Shown here: positions 47,216 to 61,683 of the stretch, piece by piece
How the letters are laid out: each line of letters begins with the position of its first letter
Position numbering within the stretch: the stretch's first letter is position 1
Assembly (NCBI GenBank): GCA_028909515.1
Contig: GCA_028909515.1_4811.1
DNA: 64,000 nt
Origin: a phage
Strand: one strand, 5' to 3'
Position numbers and translations under genes: made by a program
The notes under the pieces: generated by a model
The model's input: only the letters and a program-made list of their open reading frames with translations
What the model was told of the DNA's origin: nothing
Database searches by the model: none

Positions 47216-47542
47216 ATGAACGAAAAAGAGACGAAGCAACGCGAACGTGCAACACACGTCGGAATCGTTGAGTCCTTCCTTAATACAAGATTGAATTCAA
47301 GCCTAACAATCATGCGATTCCTGGGTCAACCAGACAGAATCAAATTTATTTTTGCCGCAAATCCGGTATCGCTGTACATCCCTGTTGAATCCATGGCGTA
47401 CTTAGTGCGCGACGAGAAAGGATGGAAGATACCAAACACAACTGTTTTCTTCAGCCATGTTGATGGTGAGATGTTTGAACGAAAAGAAGATTGCCATTTT
47501 ATTCCAGTATATCTGGACCTTGAAAGCGTAGTGGAGTTATAA
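47216..47542 (+). CDS. Hypothetical protein
   Basis: 108 aa, first gene of the plus-strand block, stop overlaps the helicase start. Confidence 0.4.
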   Translation: MNEKETKQRERATHVGIVESFLNTRLNSSLTIMRFLGQPDRIKFIFAANPVSLYIPVESMAYLVRDEKGWKIPNTTVFFSHVDGEMFERKEDCHFIPVYLDLESVVEL

Positions 47543-48726
47543 TGAACATTCCAGAATTTAATGATGAGCCAGTTATTCAGTTTAACGCGCAACAAATCGA
47601 TGCCATCGAGAAGGCCGTTGCATGGTACAAGCGATTGCAGGACGGTAAAACGACGAAGCGCGTGTTTTTCATTGCTGGCTATGCAGGGACTGGTAAAACC
47701 TCTATTGCTCGCGAGATTGTGCGCCGATGTGTCGGTGAGTACGGCGCTATCTATATTGCGCCGACCGGAAAGGCTGCAAGCCGATTAAAGCAAAAAGGCT
47801 GTCGTGGAGCTAAGACCCTCCACCAGTTCATCTATAACGTGCGCGGCGTAAATGACGATAATGAGCCAATCTTTTCGAGAAAGTCAAAGCTGGATGAAAG
47901 GCCGCACCTTGTTGTACTCGATGAAGCGTCGATGGTTGGCGAGTGGGACACAGAGCGCCTTCTTGATCACCGCATCCCTGTCCTGGCATTAGGCGACATT
48001 GGACAAGTACCTCCGGTAAAATCCGCCGCCTACTTTACTGAAGATGCCGTTGACGTACTGTTAACAGAAATCATGCGGCAAGGGAAAGAGTCCAATATAA
48101 TCCGCGCCTCCTTCTTCGTGCGCCAAGGCAACCGCCTTCCTCCGCGTGAATACGATGACGTCAAAGTATTGGCAGAATCGCCGCGCGTTACTGCATTGAA
48201 GAAATTCATGGGCGAAGATGATCAAATTATTTGCTCCTATAATAGCACCAAAGATAAATGGAATTCATTATTACGGCAAGTGAGCGGACGTATAACGCCA
48301 ATGCCAGGAATCGGCGAGAAAGTTATTTGCACCTTCAACCAGCACGGGCCAGGATTCTGTAATGGCGAGCAAGGGATTGTTATTAGCTATGAGCCAGTGC
48401 CGGACTTTGAAAGGGACGAGGACGAGTCCAATGAAATAATGTATGTCAATTTGCGCTCGCTTACCGATGGCAAAGATATAAAGGTTAAGATTAATCCTCT
48501 TTCCTTCTCTACTGATCAGGAAGTGCGCAAAGAGGCCCAACGCGCTGTTGGAGGCATGGACTATGGCTATGTCATCACGGTGCACAAATCACAAGGCAGC
48601 GAGTGGGACAATGTGTGCGTGCTGGAAGAAATCTTACGCGGCGTTCCGTACTCCAAGATGATGTACACCGCTGTCACCCGTGCTAAGAAGAATCTGACCG
48701 TGTACCGTGATTTGAAAGCGCGTTAA
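47542..48726 (+). CDS. Dda/RecD-like SF1 DNA helicase
   Basis: 394 aa. Walker A AGYAGTGKTS, Walker B VVLDEASMV, C-terminal VITVHKSQGSEW. Confidence 0.85.
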   Translation: MNIPEFNDEPVIQFNAQQIDAIEKAVAWYKRLQDGKTTKRVFFIAGYAGTGKTSIAREIVRRCVGEYGAIYIAPTGKAASRLKQKGCRGAKTLHQFIYNVRGVNDDNEPIFSRKSKLDERPHLVVLDEASMVGEWDTERLLDHRIPVLALGDIGQVPPVKSAAYFTEDAVDVLLTEIMRQGKESNIIRASFFVRQGNRLPPREYDDVKVLAESPRVTALKKFMGEDDQIICSYNSTKDKWNSLLRQVSGRITPMPGIGEKVICTFNQHGPGFCNGEQGIVISYEPVPDFERDEDESNEIMYVNLRSLTDGKDIKVKINPLSFSTDQEVRKEAQRAVGGMDYGYVITVHKSQGSEWDNVCVLEEILRGVPYSKMMYTAVTRAKKNLTVYRDLKAR

Positions 48727-48885
48727 TGTTGACGTAAATTTACGAAAAATAAAACTGAAAATCAGTTTAATTAAAGTGGCATTGCCGCCATAGTTTTTAG
48801 TTGCTACTGGCGGCGACTGAAGGCATAATTAAGTTATCCCAAACGGGGAATATAAAATAAACTAATTTATTTAAGGACTGTGAAT

Positions 48886-49725
48886 ATGGCCGAAGCAATC
48901 AAAGTATTATCTAAAGAAGAAAAACAAGCAGCCGCAGCAGAACGTCGTCGCGTGGCTGAAGAAAAACGCCTGGCTAAAAAGAAAGAAGCCGAAGAAAAAC
49001 GCCAGAAGCGTGAGCAGGAAAAACAAGCCAAGCGTGAAGAAGCTGCGCTGAAACGCAAGCAGGCTGCTGATGAGAAGGCTCAGAAGCGTGCTGAAGAAGC
49101 AGCTAAGAAAGCTAAAGAGCGTGCAGAAAAGGCTGCTGCTAAGAAAGCAGAGCGTGAAGCCGCTAAAGCAGCAAAAGAAATCGAAAAGGCAAAGGCTAAA
49201 GAAGAAGCCAAGCGCCTGAAAGCTGAGCAGGCTGCGGCCAAGAAAGCAGAGCGTGATCAAGCCCGTGCTGCAGCGAAGGCCGAAAAAGAGAAGGCCAAAG
49301 AAGAAGCTAAAGCGAAACGCAAGGCAGAGCGTGAAGCTGCTAAGATTGCGGCGAAAGAAGCTGCAGAACAGCAGAAAGAACAGCGTAAGAAAGAAGCTGA
49401 AGAACGTCGCAAAGCCATCGCAGAACGTAAGGCTGCTAAAAAGGCAAACGGTCAGCGTCGTGCAAAAGCCACTCACTTCATCTACACTGGCAATGGCCTG
49501 AGCCAGCCGCAAGAGCATTCCACCCGTGGACGCGTTCTGGCGGCGATCAAAGAAGGCGAAGTTGGCGTGGCGCAGTCTATCGATGAGCTGGGCGAAAAAG
49601 TTAAAGATCAACTGTTTGGCGCTTCCGTTCGCTCCTACCTGAGCAAGCTGGAAGAGATGGGCCACATCGAGTTTGTCGATGTTGAATCCAACGGCGATGC
49701 CGAAGACGGTGATCAAGCGGAATAA
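48886..49725 (+). CDS. Charged Glu/Lys/Ala/Arg-rich protein with a globular C-terminal domain
   Basis: ATG at 48886 with an AAGGA site (track begins at a GTG, 48880). About 190 aa of KAAK/EEKR low-complexity sequence, then an ~80 aa non-repetitive tail. Confidence 0.55.
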   Translation: MAEAIKVLSKEEKQAAAAERRRVAEEKRLAKKKEAEEKRQKREQEKQAKREEAALKRKQAADEKAQKRAEEAAKKAKERAEKAAAKKAEREAAKAAKEIEKAKAKEEAKRLKAEQAAAKKAERDQARAAAKAEKEKAKEEAKAKRKAEREAAKIAAKEAAEQQKEQRKKEAEERRKAIAERKAAKKANGQRRAKATHFIYTGNGLSQPQEHSTRGRVLAAIKEGEVGVAQSIDELGEKVKDQLFGASVRSYLSKLEEMGHIEFVDVESNGDAEDGDQAE

Positions 49726-49751: not shown

Positions 49752-49778
49752 GACCCACACTTGTTGTGGGTCTTTTTT
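49752..49778 (+). terminator. Rho-independent terminator
   Basis: GACCCACA, 5 nt loop, TGTGGGTC, then TTTTTT. Confidence 0.65.
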
Positions 49779-49804
49779 CGTCTGTACTAAATAGAAATGA
49801 CTTG

Positions 49805-49857: not shown

Positions 49858-50853
49858 ATGAACATGAAACAACCTGTAATGATTATCGGCGGCGGACTGG
49901 CAGGACTTATCACCGCGTGTCACTTCCCGAACTCTATTGTGTACGAAGCAGGGGAACGAGCGCAACAGCACAAGGCACTGCTACGCTTTCGCGGCGAAGA
50001 AGTAAGCCGTATTACCGGAATCCCTTTTAAGGCCGTGACAGTTGACAAGGCTGTGTATTTTCGCGGTAACTACTACCACGACCATTGCCCAATCAACCTT
50101 GCCAATATGTATTCCATGAAGGTCACCAATCAGTTTGGCAGTCGTTCAATCATGAAGCTTAAAACTGCAACGCGTTATATTGCGCCTGATGACTTTTATG
50201 ATCAGCTTGTCGACAAACTGGGTGACCGCATATTCTTTAATACTCCGGTTGATACTCTTTGCGGCTATAGCGAGACGCCAATCATCAACACGTCGCCGCT
50301 GCCAGTAATGATGAAGCTTGCTGGGATTGATCAAAAGCTTGATTTCTCATTTGATAAAGCAAACATTCGCGTTTACCGCTTTAAGATTAAACGTAAGTGT
50401 GATTTGTATCAGACAATTTACTTCCCTGACTACTCCGTCAGAACTTACCGCGCATCAATTACTGGTGACACGCTTATCATTGAAACAATTCCTTTGGTCA
50501 GCGTGAGTGAAGCTGCAGTTGAAGCCGCTGGCGGCATCACCCGTTATCGCGACATGAAGCTGCGCGCGGAAGTGGACGAAGTTCTGACCGCTTTTGGTCT
50601 TTCATGGAATGACATCTCTTTGGAAGAAGTTGAAAAGGTTGACCAGAAGTATGGCAAGATTGTAGACATTCCGAAAGACTTGCGACACGCCTTACTGCTC
50701 CAGCTGACTATGGATTTGAACGTATTCAGTGTTGGCCGATTCGCTACATGGCGCAACATCTTGCTTGATGACGTAGCTCATGACCTTGTTGAAGTTGAAA
50801 AACTCATCAAAGCAAATAACTATCAAAAATTTGCTTATATTGCTAATAAATAA
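49858..50853 (+). CDS. FAD/NAD(P)-binding oxidoreductase-like protein
   Basis: 331 aa. N-terminal Rossmann motif VMIIGGGLAGL. Exact family not resolved. Confidence 0.5.
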   Translation: MNMKQPVMIIGGGLAGLITACHFPNSIVYEAGERAQQHKALLRFRGEEVSRITGIPFKAVTVDKAVYFRGNYYHDHCPINLANMYSMKVTNQFGSRSIMKLKTATRYIAPDDFYDQLVDKLGDRIFFNTPVDTLCGYSETPIINTSPLPVMMKLAGIDQKLDFSFDKANIRVYRFKIKRKCDLYQTIYFPDYSVRTYRASITGDTLIIETIPLVSVSEAAVEAAGGITRYRDMKLRAEVDEVLTAFGLSWNDISLEEVEKVDQKYGKIVDIPKDLRHALLLQLTMDLNVFSVGRFATWRNILLDDVAHDLVEVEKLIKANNYQKFAYIANK

Positions 50854-50918: not shown

Positions 50919-51365
50919 ATGAAACGAATCACTGGAATCGCGCTTGCCGCGACTGCTATTCTCGGCACCATGTATATGGAAGCGACTGAAGCCGCCGTCC
51001 GTACTTCCGATTCAATCGCTGTTTACGATTGTGAAGCGATGGACGGTAAGACCGCAGCAACGACTGGTGCGAAGATTACCACTTACATCGGTGTGAATGA
51101 GCAAGAAGGTCTGAATATTCAGATTCAGGGATTCACGGGAAAAGGCGCCAACCGGACTCCGTGGATGCAGCGTTTCACTTTCGTTCAACCTCGTTCAACT
51201 GGCGCCTTTATCAACCTGATTGGTGAAAACCGTTCTGGTGCAGAAATCTTTACATCAATGAGTTCCAATAATGAACCAAAGAAAAGTTTTCAGTTGCTTT
51301 ATAACGCACAATTCGTTTATCATTGCACCTTCTCTGGTGATCAGCAACTAGTTAACTACCGTTAA
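50919..51365 (+). CDS. Secreted or periplasmic protein
   Basis: 148 aa. Signal-peptide-like N-terminus MKRITGIALAATAILG. Confidence 0.5.
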   Translation: MKRITGIALAATAILGTMYMEATEAAVRTSDSIAVYDCEAMDGKTAATTGAKITTYIGVNEQEGLNIQIQGFTGKGANRTPWMQRFTFVQPRSTGAFINLIGENRSGAEIFTSMSSNNEPKKSFQLLYNAQFVYHCTFSGDQQLVNYR

Positions 51366-51378
51366 TAGGATAATTAAA

Positions 51379-52182
51379 ATGAAAGTTGAATTAATTCGAT
51401 ACACCCAAGATGCACTTGACCTTTTGCTGGAAACAAAGAACACGCGCATGACTGGTAAGCCAGTCTCTGAGATGACAGAATCAGAGAAGCAAGAGCACTG
51501 GCGATACATGCTTGACACAATCAAGTCGCCTTTTGATTTTGTGGACTATATCTTTGACATCACTGATGTATCAAAGAATATGACTCATCAGATGGTGCGC
51601 ACGCGCACAGGTGCATATCAAGAACGTACAAGCCGCGCTCAGGAATCTTCTGCTTTTGATGCGATTCGTCCTGCCAAATTTACTTACCCAGAGGATGATC
51701 CAAAGGGATGGACTCGTCATGACGAGAAGGCTGCTGAACTGGCAGAGAAATGGGATGATGCGATGGCCACGATTGACGCCCTCTACCAAGAGCTTCGCGC
51801 GGCTGGCGCAGAGATTCAAGATGCACGTGCCGTGTTGCCTTCTAATATGCAAACGCATATCATGGCAAAGTTCAACTTGCGAACGCTGCAACAGATGGCG
51901 TCAAACCGCTTGTGCACGCGCACCCAAGGCGAGTATCAGGAAGTTTTCCGTGCGATGGTAGCTGAAGTCCTCAAGGTGCATCCGTGGGCTAATCCTTTAC
52001 TACAGCCGCAATGCATCGGCATGGGCAAGTGCGCATTCCCTCGCCATGGCAAGGCCCATTGCCCTTGGTATCGTGATTGGATGGATACCACTGCACAGCA
52101 AGAAGAATTACGCATCCAGTTTTGGAATGCAATGCCAATCACCAATAATCCGGTTGCCAAAGATGGAGTATCAAAAGGATGA
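51379..52182 (+). CDS. ThyX-like protein (flavin-dependent thymidylate synthase fold) with altered signature motif
   Basis: 267 aa. C-terminal ARAVLPSNMQTHIMAKFNLRTLQQMASNRLC resembles ThyX. The canonical RHR...S motif position reads VRTRTGAYQERTS. Confidence 0.55.
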   Translation: MKVELIRYTQDALDLLLETKNTRMTGKPVSEMTESEKQEHWRYMLDTIKSPFDFVDYIFDITDVSKNMTHQMVRTRTGAYQERTSRAQESSAFDAIRPAKFTYPEDDPKGWTRHDEKAAELAEKWDDAMATIDALYQELRAAGAEIQDARAVLPSNMQTHIMAKFNLRTLQQMASNRLCTRTQGEYQEVFRAMVAEVLKVHPWANPLLQPQCIGMGKCAFPRHGKAHCPWYRDWMDTTAQQEELRIQFWNAMPITNNPVAKDGVSKG

Positions 52183-53051
52183 GCATTAAAAACAGCGAAA
52201 TCTTAAACGTATTCGACCTTGACGGAACGCTGTTTGATGACCGTTGGCGCTTAGACCGCATCAAGGTGGCAGGTCCGTTGTCAGACTATGATGACTATCA
52301 CAGCGGTATTGGTTATGATCAGTTCTATCCTCACATTGCATCAGCAGTAGAGTCGGCATCTCTTCGCGGTGAGGCGGTTGAATATTGGACTGCAAGGCCA
52401 GAAAAATACAGACAAGTGACTTTTGAACGTCTGGACAATGTTTTCCCTTTTGATGAATTTACAATCAAGATGAGAGACTATGGCGACAAACGTCCATCAA
52501 CTATCATGAAATCTGCATGGCTATCGCACGCATTGCGGCACGGTGATTATCGAATCATCAATGTATTCGACGACCGACAAGACGTACTCGCGCGGATGCA
52601 AGATGAAGCATTGTATTATAATTCCGTTGCTCAAAATAAAATCGCTTTTACATTTAATCTTTGCAAGGCAGGTGAAGTGGTGCAACAATTAGCAATTGAT
52701 CCAAGCGCAACAGGGCAAGAAGAGACTAAGGCTGTGGAAGTTGAACAATCTCCGGCAACTGCCGCCGATATTCTTGATGCAATGGCAGCAACCTTCCGTG
52801 AGCGCAACGCTGTCTATGGCGATAACGCTGTGATGGTAGGTCAGGTTATGCAGGTGCTTTTCCCTAATGGCGTAACGTTGAAAACGCCGGAAGACTACCA
52901 CATGTGGCATCTGTTCGAGCTTAAGATTGTCAAGCTTACACGCTTTGCAATCAGCGGCCTGAAGCACGAAGACTCTATACACGATGATGGTGTTTACAGC
53001 GCCATGTGTGAACGTCTTGTAAACACCCATAATATTAATTTCAATAAATAG
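52179..53051 (+). CDS. HAD-family phosphatase fused to an unassigned C-terminal domain
   Basis: 290 aa. Motif I LNVFDLDGTLFDD and motif IV INVFDDRQD in the N-terminal ~150 aa. Confidence 0.55.
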   Translation: MSIKNSEILNVFDLDGTLFDDRWRLDRIKVAGPLSDYDDYHSGIGYDQFYPHIASAVESASLRGEAVEYWTARPEKYRQVTFERLDNVFPFDEFTIKMRDYGDKRPSTIMKSAWLSHALRHGDYRIINVFDDRQDVLARMQDEALYYNSVAQNKIAFTFNLCKAGEVVQQLAIDPSATGQEETKAVEVEQSPATAADILDAMAATFRERNAVYGDNAVMVGQVMQVLFPNGVTLKTPEDYHMWHLFELKIVKLTRFAISGLKHEDSIHDDGVYSAMCERLVNTHNINFNK

Positions 53052-53095
53052 TTTACTTGTGCGTTTCGATGAGTTATATTTACCTCATCGAAACG
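53052..53095 (+). promoter_or_regulatory. Sigma70-like promoter with an 11-12 bp inverted repeat straddling the -10
   Basis: TTTACT, 17 nt spacer, TATATT. CGTTTCGATGAG pairs with CTCATCGAAACG. The leader TCATCGAAACGAA recurs at 59915. Confidence 0.45.
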
Positions 53096-53116
53096 AAGTC
53101 CAAAAAGGATAAATAA

Positions 53117-53800
53117 ATGAAAAAAGTAATTGTTGTAACAGGTTCCAATTCCGGTCTTGGTAAATCTATTTTTGACACCCTTGGCGCTTACGGTCATAAC
53201 GTGCTTGGCATCGATTCAGCATACGGATATGACGTCCGCGATGCTAAACAGATGAAAGAAATTTTAAGCCCATATGATGTTGAAGGCTTGATCAACTGTG
53301 CTGGTGTCAACTCTAACAACTGGTTCGAAGATGTTAACTACGAAGAGTTCAATCGCGTTATGCACACCAACGCCTTCTCTTTCGTCAACACGACTCAGGC
53401 CGCGCTGAAAAGTCTTATCGACAACAAAGGCTTTGTGATCAACATCGTTTCCAACGCTGCGCATATTCCTATGACGTCCAGCTTGTGTTATAATGCATCC
53501 AAGGCTGCTGCGCTTATGATCAGCAAGCAGATGGCTCACGAACTTACGCCTAAGTACGGCATCACGGTATTCTCTATTAGTCCTAACAAGTTGCGCGGCA
53601 CTGGCATGTCTAAACAGATTGAAGATGCCGTTTGTGCGACTCGCGGCTGGACTCCTGAATACGCTGCTGAATACCAGAAAAAGGCATTGATGAATGGATT
53701 GGAGACTGAGCCGCAAGTAATTGCCGACTTCATTCGCCATATCTTAATTACGGGCGCATGGCGCTTTATGTCTGGCACTGATATTCCATTTGGTAAATAA
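53117..53800 (+). CDS. Short-chain dehydrogenase/reductase (SDR) family oxidoreductase
   Basis: 227 aa. Motifs VIVVTGSNSGLGKS, NCAG and catalytic YNASK. Confidence 0.75.
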   Translation: MKKVIVVTGSNSGLGKSIFDTLGAYGHNVLGIDSAYGYDVRDAKQMKEILSPYDVEGLINCAGVNSNNWFEDVNYEEFNRVMHTNAFSFVNTTQAALKSLIDNKGFVINIVSNAAHIPMTSSLCYNASKAAALMISKQMAHELTPKYGITVFSISPNKLRGTGMSKQIEDAVCATRGWTPEYAAEYQKKALMNGLETEPQVIADFIRHILITGAWRFMSGTDIPFGK

Positions 53801-60822: not shown

Positions 60823-61683
60823 ATGTCTAAGAAAGAAACCACCGAAGTTGCAGTGAAAAACACCCAGATGTCCGCTATGGCTGATTTTGTCGACATGACC
60901 GATTTTGGCGCTGGTTTTGAAGGTGCCGATGCCGATGCGTATGCCATTCCTTTTATCGTCGTACTGCAGAAGATGTCTCCTATGGTCGACGAAGATGATC
61001 CGAAACACGTTCCTGGCGCAAAAGCTGGCATGCTTTACAACACCGTTACTGGTGAGTTGTATGACGGCAAGAAAGGCGTGCAGATCATCCCTTGCGCATT
61101 CAAACGCACCTTCATTCTTTGGGGCGGTCGCGAGTCCGACGATAAAGGCTTTAAAGGTGAATTCACCAAAGAGCACGTTGATGCAGAAGTCGCGGCAGGC
61201 CGCGCTGTTGAGATCAACGGTAAGGTATTCGTGCCGGACGAAAACGGCAAGGTGCACGAGAAGAAATCTCCTTACTACGCAGATACACGCAACCACTTCG
61301 TAATTCTGTTGAACGAAGAAACTGGTGAATTTGGTAGCGCAATGCTGTCTCTGACTTCTTCCATGATCAAGCCGTCTCGCATGCTGATGACCGCCCTGCA
61401 GCAGAAGAAAGTTCAGACTCCGCAGGGTCTGAAAACGCCGCCGACCTTTATGAACATTGTTCGCATGGGTACTGCATCCCAGTCCAAAGACGGCAATACA
61501 TGGTCTGTTCTGAAGTTTGAGCTGGAAGGTCTGGTGCAGGACAAAGGTCTGTACGAAGTCGCCAAGGCATTCCACAACGACGTAGTTGGCGGTAACGTTA
61601 ACATCGACCGCAGCAAGCAGGAAGAAGCAAGCGGTGCCGCTGGTCCTGTCAATGAAACTCCGACCGACGCAGAAGAGTTTTAA
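60823..61683 (+). CDS. ssDNA-binding protein-like (acidic C-terminal tail ending in Phe)
   Basis: 286 aa. C-terminus ETPTDAEEF resembles SSB interaction tails. No OB-fold verified. Confidence 0.4.
   Translation: MSKKETTEVAVKNTQMSAMADFVDMTDFGAGFEGADADAYAIPFIVVLQKMSPMVDEDDPKHVPGAKAGMLYNTVTGELYDGKKGVQIIPCAFKRTFILWGGRESDDKGFKGEFTKEHVDAEVAAGRAVEINGKVFVPDENGKVHEKKSPYYADTRNHFVILLNEETGEFGSAMLSLTSSMIKPSRMLMTALQQKKVQTPQGLKTPPTFMNIVRMGTASQSKDGNTWSVLKFELEGLVQDKGLYEVAKAFHNDVVGGNVNIDRSKQEEASGAAGPVNETPTDAEEF

What the first reader, a model, noticed from the sequence alone, without database searches (positions are those of the whole stretch)
48886..49725. Protein made mostly of a ~190 aa Glu/Lys/Ala/Arg charged repeat
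The N-terminal two-thirds is an uninterrupted KAAK/EEKR array typical of a single stable alpha-helix or a histone-H1-like tail, followed by an ~80 aa non-repetitive domain. Its position next to the helicase suggests a DNA- or nucleoid-associated role.
Basis: seen in the sequence. Interest (0 to 1): 0.5.

Follow-up and report, generated by a model that had tools for sequence, protein, structure and literature searches.

The report
Charged-rod winged-helix phage protein
This is a real, strongly conserved and probably abundant phage protein, wrongly labelled "TolA" in databases, made of a ~26 nm charged helical rod with a continuous basic stripe, a small winged-helix domain and an acidic tail; its function is untested, and I infer a DNA-associated scaffold tied to a neighbouring flavoprotein/thymidylate-synthase gene pair.

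Summary
ORF 48886-49725 (+) encodes 279 aa; residues 16-195 are 88% Ala/Lys/Glu/Arg and the last ~84 aa are non-repetitive. The window is a Wifcevirus (E. coli myovirus), a distant relative of Pseudomonas Pbunavirus.

- **The charged stretch:** there is no DNA tandem repeat. It is 15 in-register 11-residue repeats with Lys/Arg at a/d/e/h. The period is 3.64-3.71 in 18 of 22 family members and absent from E. coli TolA.
- **Structure:** AlphaFold gives one helix (residues 10-186). A basic arm (RRxKATH), a winged-helix domain and an acidic tail follow.
- **Charge:** the rod carries only +5 to +25, and whole homologues can be net negative, so it is not a histone-H1-like polycation.
- **Gene reality:** seven alleles differ at 47 synonymous-only codons against 4 with amino-acid changes, with no indels. 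Codon bias ranks third of 67 ORFs.
- **Neighbours:** the helicase neighbour is conserved only in Pbunavirus-like phages. An uncharacterised FAD-type protein followed by ThyX is also found next to distant relatives that lack both rod and helicase.

There is no Pfam, NCBIfam or PDB sequence match. The "TolA" label is a compositional artefact, and "structural protein" could not be verified. My best reading is a DNA-associated rod-like scaffold (about 0.38). Interest is moderate.

The parts
48801..48829 (+). Weak sigma-70-like promoter candidate (TTGCTA-17-CATAAT) in the 159-nt gap after the helicase gene
   Evidence: Consensus scan, 9 of 12 matches. An inverted repeat GCCGCCA/TGGCGGC (48784-48790 and 48808-48814) overlaps it. 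Function is not shown.
48873..48877 (+). Ribosome-binding site AAGGA, 8 nt before the ATG
   Evidence: Read directly from the sequence. An RBS is annotated at the same place in phage Mansfield.
48886..49725 (+). Coding sequence, 279 aa, member of PHROG 4765 (unknown function)
   Evidence: Seven alleles differ at 47 synonymous-only codons against 4 with amino-acid changes, with no indels. Codon-usage bias is third of 67 ORFs, with Arg 25/25 CGY and Leu 9/10 CTG.
48967..49443 (+). Rod: 15 in-register hendecads (residues 28-186) with K/R at a/d/e/h and E at b/c/g/j. The predicted single helix spans residues 10-186, about 26 nm.
   Evidence: K/R period is 3.68 and no shuffle out of 300 reaches it. 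Register table: K/R fill 39 of 60 a/d/e/h positions, with only 2 acidic residues there. AlphaFold2 gives a helix over residues 10-186. The same period is found in 18 of 22 family members.
49444..49476 (+). Conserved basic arm, ANGQRRAKATH (family consensus G-x-R-R-P-K/R-A-T-H)
   Evidence: R191, R192, T196 and H197 are invariant in 8 genera. The arm carries net +1 to +6 in every member examined.
49474..49680 (+). Winged-helix domain (residues 197-265): strand, H1, strand, H2, H3 (VRSYLSKLEE), strand
49681..49722 (+). Acidic, low-confidence C-terminal tail (VESNGDAEDGDQAE)
   Evidence: pLDDT is below 50. In the eight phage genera the tail carries net -4 to -15; a few metagenomic members have shorter tails of -1 to -3. 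There is no conserved terminal motif.
49752..49782 (+). Intrinsic terminator directly after the gene
   Evidence: Stem of 8 pairs followed by TTTTTT. An equivalent terminator follows the gene in Kyle, LBL3 and MTx and is annotated in LBL3, MTx, Mansfield and WFH.
49858..50853 (+). Linked gene: 331-aa FAD/NAD-type (GxGxxG) protein, PHROG 4828, function unknown
   Evidence: It lies just downstream of the rod/winged-helix gene wherever downstream sequence was available, with one small ORF between them in L052/L053. It directly follows, mostly with overlapping stop/start, four distant relatives that lack the rod (37-48% identity). The UDP-galactopyranose-mutase similarity is the Mansfield annotators' claim and was not reproduced here.
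51379..52182 (+). Linked gene: ThyX (flavin-dependent thymidylate synthase)
   Evidence: Annotated as such in the relatives. ThyX is found downstream of the pair in phage loci and in distant contigs L046 and L049.
47542..48726 (+). Upstream neighbour: Dda/RecD-like helicase (conserved neighbour in Pbunavirus-like phages only)
   Evidence: It is separated from the gene by two ORFs in L054 and absent from the distant relatives' contigs.

Best explanation
**Proposal.** The gene makes an abundant, non-enzymatic, rod-shaped scaffold that sits on nucleic acid.

**Shown**
- It is a real, strongly constrained gene.
- Its product is predicted to be a ~26 nm helix built from 15 hendecads. The 'core' positions a/d/e/h carry Lys/Arg or Ala, giving one continuous basic stripe.
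- The rod is followed by a conserved basic arm, a winged-helix domain and an acidic disordered tail.
- The arm plus winged-helix module is genetically coupled to an FAD-type protein and ThyX.

**Inferred**
- The arm and winged helix anchor the protein on DNA.
- The basic stripe lies against the polyanion, or pairs with the acidic face of a neighbouring rod, so that many copies coat or bridge replicating phage DNA.
- The acidic tail either folds back on the basic parts (auto-inhibition) or recruits a partner.
- Because the winged-helix module travels with the flavoprotein and ThyX genes, the scaffold may hold that nucleotide-metabolism pair at the DNA. This would resemble the way phage T4 couples dNTP synthesis to its replisome (recalled from my own knowledge, not tested).
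For: - **Conserved basic features.** The arm RRxKATH is invariant, and R249 and K254 on helix 3 are invariant.
- **Basic stripe.** K/R period is 3.64-3.71 in 18 of 22 members, with acidic residues on the opposite face. K/R fill 39 of 60 a/d/e/h positions. The pattern is absent from E. coli TolA, a protein of similar composition.
- **Abundance.** Codon bias ranks third of 67 ORFs, behind the probable capsid gene (identity inferred, not tested) and a Pam3_Gp34-like gene and above a 483-aa ORF I take to be the tail sheath (untested). The gene forms its own unit with an RBS and a conserved terminator.
- **Purifying selection on the exact rod sequence.** 36 synonymous against 2 non-synonymous variable codons.
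- **Location.** It lies in the replication and nucleotide-metabolism module in 8 genera and 27 IMG/VR loci.
- **Coupling.** The arm/winged-helix module is coupled to the FAD-type protein and ThyX in unrelated contigs.
- **A related architecture.** One distant member, P0043, replaces the rod with (PAKKAAA)n, a classical DNA-binding type of tail.
Against: - No DNA-binding experiment or model exists for this family.
- An almost invariant helix 3 across very different phages fits a conserved protein partner as well as it fits DNA.
- The rod's net charge is small in most homologues (+5 to +13).
- No charge periodicity matching the DNA repeat was found.
- No shared operator-like repeat was found upstream of the gene.
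- AlphaFold predicts single long helices for many charged sequences whether or not they are stable or oligomeric.
Confidence: 0.38

Rival explanations
1. Protein-protein adaptor. The winged-helix domain binds the neighbouring FAD-type protein (or ThyX or a replisome protein) rather than DNA. The rod is a spacer or oligomerisation element, and the acidic tail is a second docking site.
For: - The two genes have overlapping stop/start codons in distant relatives, typical of interacting subunits (pairing by homology).
- Helix 3 is nearly invariant.
- The winged-helix core is neutral to acidic.
Against: - The invariant basic arm and the basic stripe have no obvious role in this model.
- In the Pbunavirus-like phages a strong terminator separates the two genes, and their codon bias differs (z 4.9 against 1.4), suggesting unequal amounts.
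Confidence: 0.22
2. KfrA-like transcriptional (auto)regulator. A sequence-specific winged-helix repressor or activator controls the downstream nucleotide-metabolism genes, with the rod used for oligomerisation.
For: - A winged-helix gene sits at the head of a gene block.
- KfrA-type proteins combine a DNA-binding head with a long helical tail and autoregulate (PMC7821693, PMC7783346).
- Phage 14-1 has a second promoter class that probably needs an unknown phage factor (PMC10914365).
- An inverted repeat overlaps the promoter-like site in the window.
Against: - No palindrome is shared between genera upstream of the gene.
- Very strong codon bias is unusual for a regulator.
- An invariant recognition helix across hosts as different as E. 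coli, Xanthomonas and Aeromonas argues against sequence-specific operators.
- There is no match to the KfrA_N family.
Confidence: 0.13
3. Virion-associated (internal or 'structural') protein packaged with the DNA and injected, as the GenBank label 'putative structural protein' implies.
For: - The label appears in the LBL3, JG024, phiKTN6, tabernarius and XcP1 records.
- The protein is probably abundant and could bind DNA.
- Absence from DNA-free ghost particles is what a DNA-bound passenger would show.
Against: - The gene lies in the replication module, far from the virion genes.
- The same gene in phage 14-1, sequenced by the same group, is only 'hypothetical'.
- The SCUT-S1 homologue ORF69 is not among the 31 proteins found by mass spectrometry, although its neighbours ORF70 and ORF72 are.
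- It is not mentioned in the E217 paper text, and the Pa193 virion mass-spectrometry tables were not readable here.
- The source paper (Ceyssens 2009) could not be read.
Confidence: 0.08
4. A TolA homologue or mimic acting in the cell envelope, as annotated in ECML-117, FEC19, vB_Eco4M-7 and others.
For: Composition resembles TolA domain II (A/K/E-rich helix), as does the outline of a long helix followed by a small C-terminal domain.
Against: - There is no transmembrane anchor or signal peptide; the N-terminus is MAEAIKVLSKEEKQ.
- There is no Pfam or NCBIfam TolA match.
- The C-terminal fold is a winged helix, not TolA domain III.
- TolA domain II lacks the 3.68-residue K/R period (R 0.13 against 0.4-0.6).
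Confidence: 0.02

Closest known systems
KfrA-type plasmid proteins (IncP-1 and IncU plasmids)
   Same: About 300 aa. A small DNA-binding head is joined to a very long Ala/charged alpha-helical tail. They are encoded by mobile elements and are proposed filament or scaffold formers (PMC7821693, PMC7783346).
   Different: The domain order is reversed (KfrA has its head at the N-terminus). There is no KfrA_N sequence match. KfrA tails are described as coiled coils, whereas here the core positions are Lys/Arg/Ala. No operator was found.
Linker histone H1/H5
   Same: A winged-helix globular domain is flanked by a long Lys/Ala-rich extension, in an abundant architectural DNA binder (my own knowledge). 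The winged-helix fold is confirmed here.
   Different: No sequence relationship was found. H1 tails are Pro-containing, almost free of acidic residues, disordered and strongly cationic. This rod is 22% acidic, Pro-free, helical and only weakly cationic, and the protein also has an acidic tail.
E. coli TolA domain II (source of the database label)
   Same: An Ala/Lys/Glu(Asp)-rich long helix of about 200 aa.
   Different: There is no membrane anchor and a different C-terminal fold. TolA has no hendecad K/R stripe. There is no family match.
ER/K single alpha-helix (SAH) domains (myosin VI/X, caldesmon)
   Same: Very high E+K+R content, almost no hydrophobic residues, predicted as a long isolated helix. 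Opposite charges at i+3 or i+4 are mildly enriched in most homologues.
   Different: E-to-K pairs at i+4 are not enriched. The dominant pattern is like-charge pairs at i+7 and i+11, which segregates + and - charges onto opposite faces. Ala makes up 22-36% of the region.
11-residue-repeat amphipathic helices (group 3 LEA proteins, apolipoproteins, alpha-synuclein)
   Same: Hendecad (11/3) periodicity. An Ala/Lys/Glu-rich sequence with charge stripes, and helices that typically fold on a partner surface (my own knowledge; the periodicity itself is shown).
   Different: There is no hydrophobic face (2-9% hydrophobic residues). The protein is fused to a winged-helix domain and encoded by a phage. 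No homology was tested or claimed.

Membership tests
TolA (Tol-Pal system) | N-terminal transmembrane anchor | tested here: not met
   The N-terminus MAEAIKVLSKEEKQAAAAERRR has no hydrophobic segment. Only 5% of residues 2-190 are hydrophobic.
TolA (Tol-Pal system) | TolA C-terminal domain III, or a match to a TolA family model | tested here: not met
   No Pfam hit at E<=1. No NCBIfam TolA hit. The C-terminal fold is a winged helix.
TolA (Tol-Pal system) | Domain II-type Ala/Lys/Glu helix | tested here: inconclusive
   Composition is similar, but E. coli TolA domain II lacks the 3.68-residue K/R period. The resemblance is compositional only.
Winged-helix fold superfamily | H1-strand-H2-H3-strand (wing) topology | tested here: met
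Winged-helix fold superfamily | Nucleic-acid binding through helix 3 and the wing | not testable with these tools
   Only indirect evidence: invariant R249 and K254 and the basic arm.
Linker histone H1/H5 | Sequence membership of the linker-histone globular domain family | tested here: not met
Linker histone H1/H5 | Strongly cationic, acid-poor, Pro-containing disordered tail | tested here: not met
   22% D+E, no Pro, predicted helical. Rod net charge is +5 to +25, and four of the eight phage homologues are net negative overall.
ER/K single alpha-helix (SAH) | High E/K/R content without a hydrophobic seam | tested here: met
   Ala plus hydrophobic residues show no 3.5-residue period.
ER/K single alpha-helix (SAH) | Dense i to i+4 (E then K/R) salt-bridge pattern | tested here: inconclusive
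   E-to-K/R at i+4 gives z from -0.9 to +1.0. Opposite charges at i+3 or i+4 are enriched in some homologues only, while like-charge pairs at i+7 and i+11 dominate.
ER/K single alpha-helix (SAH) | Monomeric stable helix in solution | not testable with these tools
   Needs circular dichroism and analytical ultracentrifugation or SEC-MALS.
KfrA-type proteins | KfrA_N DNA-binding head (Pfam) at the N-terminus | tested here: not met
   No Pfam hit. The globular domain here is C-terminal.
KfrA-type proteins | Autoregulatory operator upstream of its own gene | tested here: inconclusive
   Each genus has some inverted repeat, but none is shared.
Hendecad (11/3) repeat helices / right-handed coiled coils | Residue periodicity near 3.67 | tested here: met
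   Best period is 3.64-3.71 in 18 of 22 members. Among the 18 with this period, 16 are reached by no shuffle and two by 1-3 of 100. The register is unbroken over 15 repeats.
Hendecad (11/3) repeat helices / right-handed coiled coils | Hydrophobic a/d/e/h core | tested here: not met
   The a/d/e/h positions hold K/R (39 of 60) and Ala (17 of 60).
PHROG 4765 (phage protein family of unknown function) | Full-length profile match | tested here: met
   E = 8.6e-84 over residues 1-279.

The most novel reading that the evidence does not exclude
This would be a previously unrecognised kind of phage chromatin or scaffold protein. A hendecad helix carries lysine and arginine at its 'core' positions, so that DNA, or the acidic face of the next rod, takes the place of a partner helix. 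A winged helix with a minor-groove-type arm anchors the rod. The whole protein would tether an uncharacterised flavoenzyme and ThyX to replicating DNA, forming a DNA-bound nucleotide-supply or DNA-modification factory conserved across Pbunavirus-like phages and other mobile elements.
Probability: 0.1. Interest if true: 0.7.

Novelty: new variant of a known kind. Interest (0 to 1): 0.4.

Why it matters
- **Scope.** The family is a conserved, probably highly expressed gene with no Pfam family and no known function. It is carried by at least 357 sequenced phages, including the Pbunavirus phages most used in Pseudomonas therapy.
- **Annotation.** It is currently labelled in four ways: TolA, structural protein, hypothetical, and even helicase. 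Correcting that is useful in itself.
- **Rod design.** Basic residues at hendecad core positions, kept in register for about 165 residues, is an unusual and testable design for a polyanion-binding or self-stacking rod.
- **Gene pair.** The tight pairing of the arm/winged-helix module with an uncharacterised FAD-type protein and ThyX gives a concrete handle on two unknown genes at once. It may also bear on how these phages supply or modify DNA precursors.

Tried and rejected
1. **DNA tandem repeat or slippage artefact: rejected.** TRF finds nothing, and there are no indels in 29 genomes.
2. **Sequence-level identification: nothing found.** Pfam, NCBIfam and PDB (single sequence and profile) gave no hit. 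PHROGs gives only 'unknown function'.
3. **The search for homologous proteins with the C-terminal domain or its alignment.** It returned only truncated members. Full-length proteins seem to be lost to the low-complexity bias filter. The HMMER scan of representatives recovered 44.
4. **Canonical coiled coil: rejected.** Ala plus hydrophobic residues show no 3.5-residue period, and hydrophobic content is 2-9%.
5. **Charge periodicity matching the DNA helical repeat (about 22-24 residues): not found**.
6. **Shared operator or iteron upstream of the gene in six genera: not found**.
7. **Foldseek searches.** The full-length model against the PDB gave no significant match. BFVD returned only family members. 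The AFDB50 library was unavailable.
8. **Evidence for virion association.**
   - The SCUT-S1 ghost-particle mass spectrometry lacks ORF69.
   - The E217 and Pa193 papers do not mention the protein in their text, and the Pa193 supplementary tables are not held.
   - The KTN6/KT28 paper reports no mass spectrometry.
   - Ceyssens 2009 is not held.
   - The FoX6 tables are not held.
9. **Transcript data for the phage 14-1 homologue gp67.** The tables of PMC10914365 are not held.
10. **UDP-galactopyranose-mutase identity of the neighbouring gene.** It was not reproduced with sequence or profile searches; only the dinucleotide-binding motif matches, at E about 0.4.
11. **Literature search for a characterised homologue: none found**.

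Full report
**What the window is**

The 840-nt gene matches 29 sequenced phages at 97-99.9% identity over its full length. All are Wifcevirus myoviruses of E. coli and Shigella, such as TH35, WFC, ECML-117, FEC19 and BASEL Bas99-101. Wifcevirus is a distant relative of the Pseudomonas genus Pbunavirus (PMC11990801). In these records the gene is called 'TolA protein', 'putative TolA protein' or 'hypothetical protein'.

**Observation check**

ORF 48886-49725 (+) encodes 279 aa.
- Residues 16-195 are 88% Ala/Lys/Glu/Arg, with net charge +28, one Gly and no Pro.
- Residues 196-279 have ordinary composition and net charge -10.

Tandem Repeats Finder sees no DNA repeat, so this is not a slippage array.

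**The charged region is a true protein-level repeat**

- Lys/Arg recur with a best period of 3.68 residues, about 11/3. No shuffle out of 300 reaches the observed power, and the phase is constant from residue 24 to residue 177.
- Written in rows of eleven, residues 28-186 form 15 hendecads without a register break. Positions a/d/e/h hold K/R in 39 of 60 cases, Ala in 17, and an acidic residue in only 2. Glu concentrates at b/c/g/j.
- As a result, acidic residues lie about 180 degrees away from the basic stripe.
- The same period, 3.64-3.71, appears in all eight phage genera examined and in 18 of 22 family members with a long rod.
- E. coli TolA domain II was taken as a control of similar composition. 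It lacks the period (R_KR 0.13; main peak at 5.3 residues).
- Pair statistics agree. K/R-K/R pairs are enriched at i+7 and i+11 (z from 1.9 to 6.9). E-E pairs are depleted at i+4. Opposite charges at i+3 or i+4 are only mildly enriched.
- The classical ER/K signature, E followed by K at i+4, is not enriched.
- Hydrophobic residues make up 2-9% of the region, and there is no 3.5-residue period. A canonical coiled coil is unlikely.

**Predicted structure**

AlphaFold2 with a 26-sequence alignment gives mean pLDDT 87. It predicts one continuous helix over residues 10-186, about 26 nm at 1.5 Å per residue. A compact domain follows at pLDDT mostly 93-96, and both ends are disordered. A separate model of residues 180-279 has the same topology: strand, H1, strand, H2, H3, strand.

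Foldseek finds nothing significant in the PDB and only family members in BFVD. The non-repetitive domain is therefore a winged helix. The fold alone does not say whether it binds DNA or protein.

**Family anatomy**

tblastn with the C-terminal 96 aa finds 357 phage records: Pbunavirus, Kylevirus, Myosmarvirus, Tabernariusvirus, Carpasinavirus, Aeromonas and Burkholderia phages. An eight-genus alignment shows one plan:
- a variable, sometimes His-rich N-terminus;
- a 164-189-aa rod in these eight genera, and down to about 100 aa in metagenomic members;
- a conserved basic arm, G-x-RRP(K/R)ATH;
- the winged helix, with H3 'VRSYLSKLEEMGH' almost invariant and R249, K254 and L255 invariant;
- an acidic tail, net -4 to -15 in the eight genera.

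The rod's net charge is only +5 to +25, with this phage at the extreme. The LBL3, E217, Kyle and Gekk3-15 proteins are net negative overall. That rules out an H1-type polycation.

A full HMMER scan of 1.84 billion representatives finds only 44 at E<1e-3, so the family is narrow. Pfam, NCBIfam and PDB sequence searches find nothing. PHROG 4765 is 'unknown function'.

**The gene is real, constrained and probably highly expressed**

- Seven Wifcevirus alleles differ at 47 codons synonymously and at 4 with an amino-acid change. There are no indels.
- Within the rod the count is 36 synonymous against 2 non-synonymous, both K/Q.
- After correcting for amino-acid composition, optimal-codon usage ranks third of 67 ORFs (z = 4.9). 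It comes behind the probable major capsid gene (an identification I infer and did not test) and a Pam3_Gp34-like gene, and ahead of a 483-aa ORF I take to be the tail sheath, also untested. Arg is 25/25 CGY and Leu 9/10 CTG.
- The gene has an AAGGA ribosome-binding site and a weak promoter-like site. A strong terminator follows it, conserved in Kyle, LBL3 and MTx.

**Genomic context**

In all eight genera, and in the 27 IMG/VR loci wherever the flanks allow, the order is:
- Dda-like helicase;
- this gene;
- a 300-330-aa FAD/NAD-type protein (window 49858-50853);
- ThyX;
- a HAD/PNKP-like protein and an SDR, seen in the annotated relatives and sampled metagenome contigs.

The helicase link is not universal. 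In L054 two genes intervene, while the FAD-type gene remains adjacent.

The more distant relatives carry more weight. The HMMER scan also found members that keep the arm and winged helix but replace the rod with another N-terminal domain (P0035, P0037-P0045).
- In the four cases with downstream sequence (P0039, P0043, P0044, P0045), the next gene or next but one is a homologue of the same FAD-type protein. Identity is 37-48% and E ranges from 2e-16 to 2e-68.
- The stop and start codons usually overlap.
- ThyX follows in two of them.
- None of these contigs has a Dda-like helicase.

The conserved unit is therefore [arm + winged helix]-[FAD-type protein]-[ThyX]. The rod is an addition specific to the Pbunavirus-like phages.

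**Most likely mechanism**

*Shown:* the anatomy, the selective constraint, the codon bias and the gene linkage described above.

*Inferred:* the arm and winged helix anchor the protein on DNA. The basic stripe lies on the polyanion, or stacks against the acidic face of another rod, so that many copies coat or bridge replicating DNA. The acidic tail auto-inhibits or recruits a partner. The scaffold may hold the flavoprotein/ThyX pair at the DNA. I put this at about 0.38.

*Other rivals:*
- A KfrA-like autoregulator (0.13). It is weakened by the absence of a shared operator and by the strong codon bias.
- A virion passenger (0.08). The 'structural' label seems to stem from the LBL3 record. The 14-1 homologue is only 'hypothetical', and the SCUT-S1 homologue was not among the proteins found by mass spectrometry.
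- A TolA homologue (0.02).

**Comparison with known proteins**

It works most like head-plus-rod DNA-associated proteins: the KfrA type (PMC7821693, PMC7783346) and, in outline, linker histones. It belongs to neither, because the defining sequence families and tail properties were tested and not met.

It is not TolA:
- it has no membrane anchor;
- it has no TolA family match;
- its C-terminal fold is different;
- its rod periodicity is different.

The rod combines features of ER/K single helices with those of 11-residue-repeat helices (LEA-3, apolipoproteins), but it has basic residues where those have a hydrophobic or neutral face.

**Verdict**

This is an ordinary-looking low-complexity ORF that turns out to be a well-defined, mis-annotated and uncharacterised family, with an unusual rod design and an informative gene partnership. 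No function has been demonstrated. Novelty: a new variant of a known kind. Interest: 0.4.

Noticed in passing
window 49858-50853 (+): A 331-aa protein with an N-terminal GxGxxG dinucleotide-binding motif. It belongs to PHROG 4828 (unknown function) and has no Pfam, NCBIfam or PDB sequence match, but about 1950 homologues in metagenomes. GenBank annotators of phage Mansfield call it UDP-galactopyranose mutase on HHpred grounds; this was not reproduced here. It always lies next to the rod/winged-helix gene, including in distant contigs.
   Followed up: partly
window 60823-61683 (+): A 286-aa Pam3_Gp34-like protein (PF23977, E = 4e-86) with an acidic C-terminus ...TDAEEF. It has the second-strongest codon-usage bias in the window. 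It is probably very abundant, and the tail recalls single-strand-binding proteins.
   Followed up: partly
window 50919-51365 (+): A 148-aa ORF with a signal-peptide-like N-terminus (MKRITGIALAATAILGTMY...). It has no PHROG or Pfam match and is inserted between the FAD-type gene and thyX. Its length matches annotated ORFs at the corresponding position in other Wifcevirus and in Kyle; homology was not checked.
   Followed up: no
L009 1691-2830; proteins P0012, P0014, P0021, P0022: Several family members, including phage tabernarius, carry His-rich N-terminal segments ahead of the rod (for example MSHTHHHD and NHDHQHNHQHNH). This suggests metal binding. The Wifcevirus protein lacks such a segment.
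   Followed up: no
L011 2267-3004 (protein P0043): A distant relative replaces the hendecad rod with a different N-terminal domain (motif TYNALTGK..KKF.SRA.AE.RV) followed by a (PAKKAAA)n histone-H1/AlgP-like linker. Its contig also carries DUF932 and DUF2786/DUF7168 genes, which I recall (unchecked) as typical of plasmid or ICE leading regions.
   Followed up: partly
window 51379-53800 and L052, L054: The block ThyX, HAD/PNKP-like protein and short-chain dehydrogenase (FabG-like) is conserved downstream of the pair across Pbunavirus-like contigs. It may be a nucleotide- or DNA-modification pathway. The BASEL study notes that Wifcevirus phages are considerably resistant to restriction.
   Followed up: no
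window 48784-48814: A perfect 7-bp inverted repeat, GCCGCCA-N17-TGGCGGC, overlaps the -35 of the promoter-like site upstream of the gene. No equivalent repeat is shared with other genera.
   Followed up: partly
database behaviour: The word-indexed protein search returned only truncated members of this family. Full-length, low-complexity-rich members appeared only in the exhaustive HMMER scan. This family is therefore probably under-counted in routine homology searches.
   Followed up: partly
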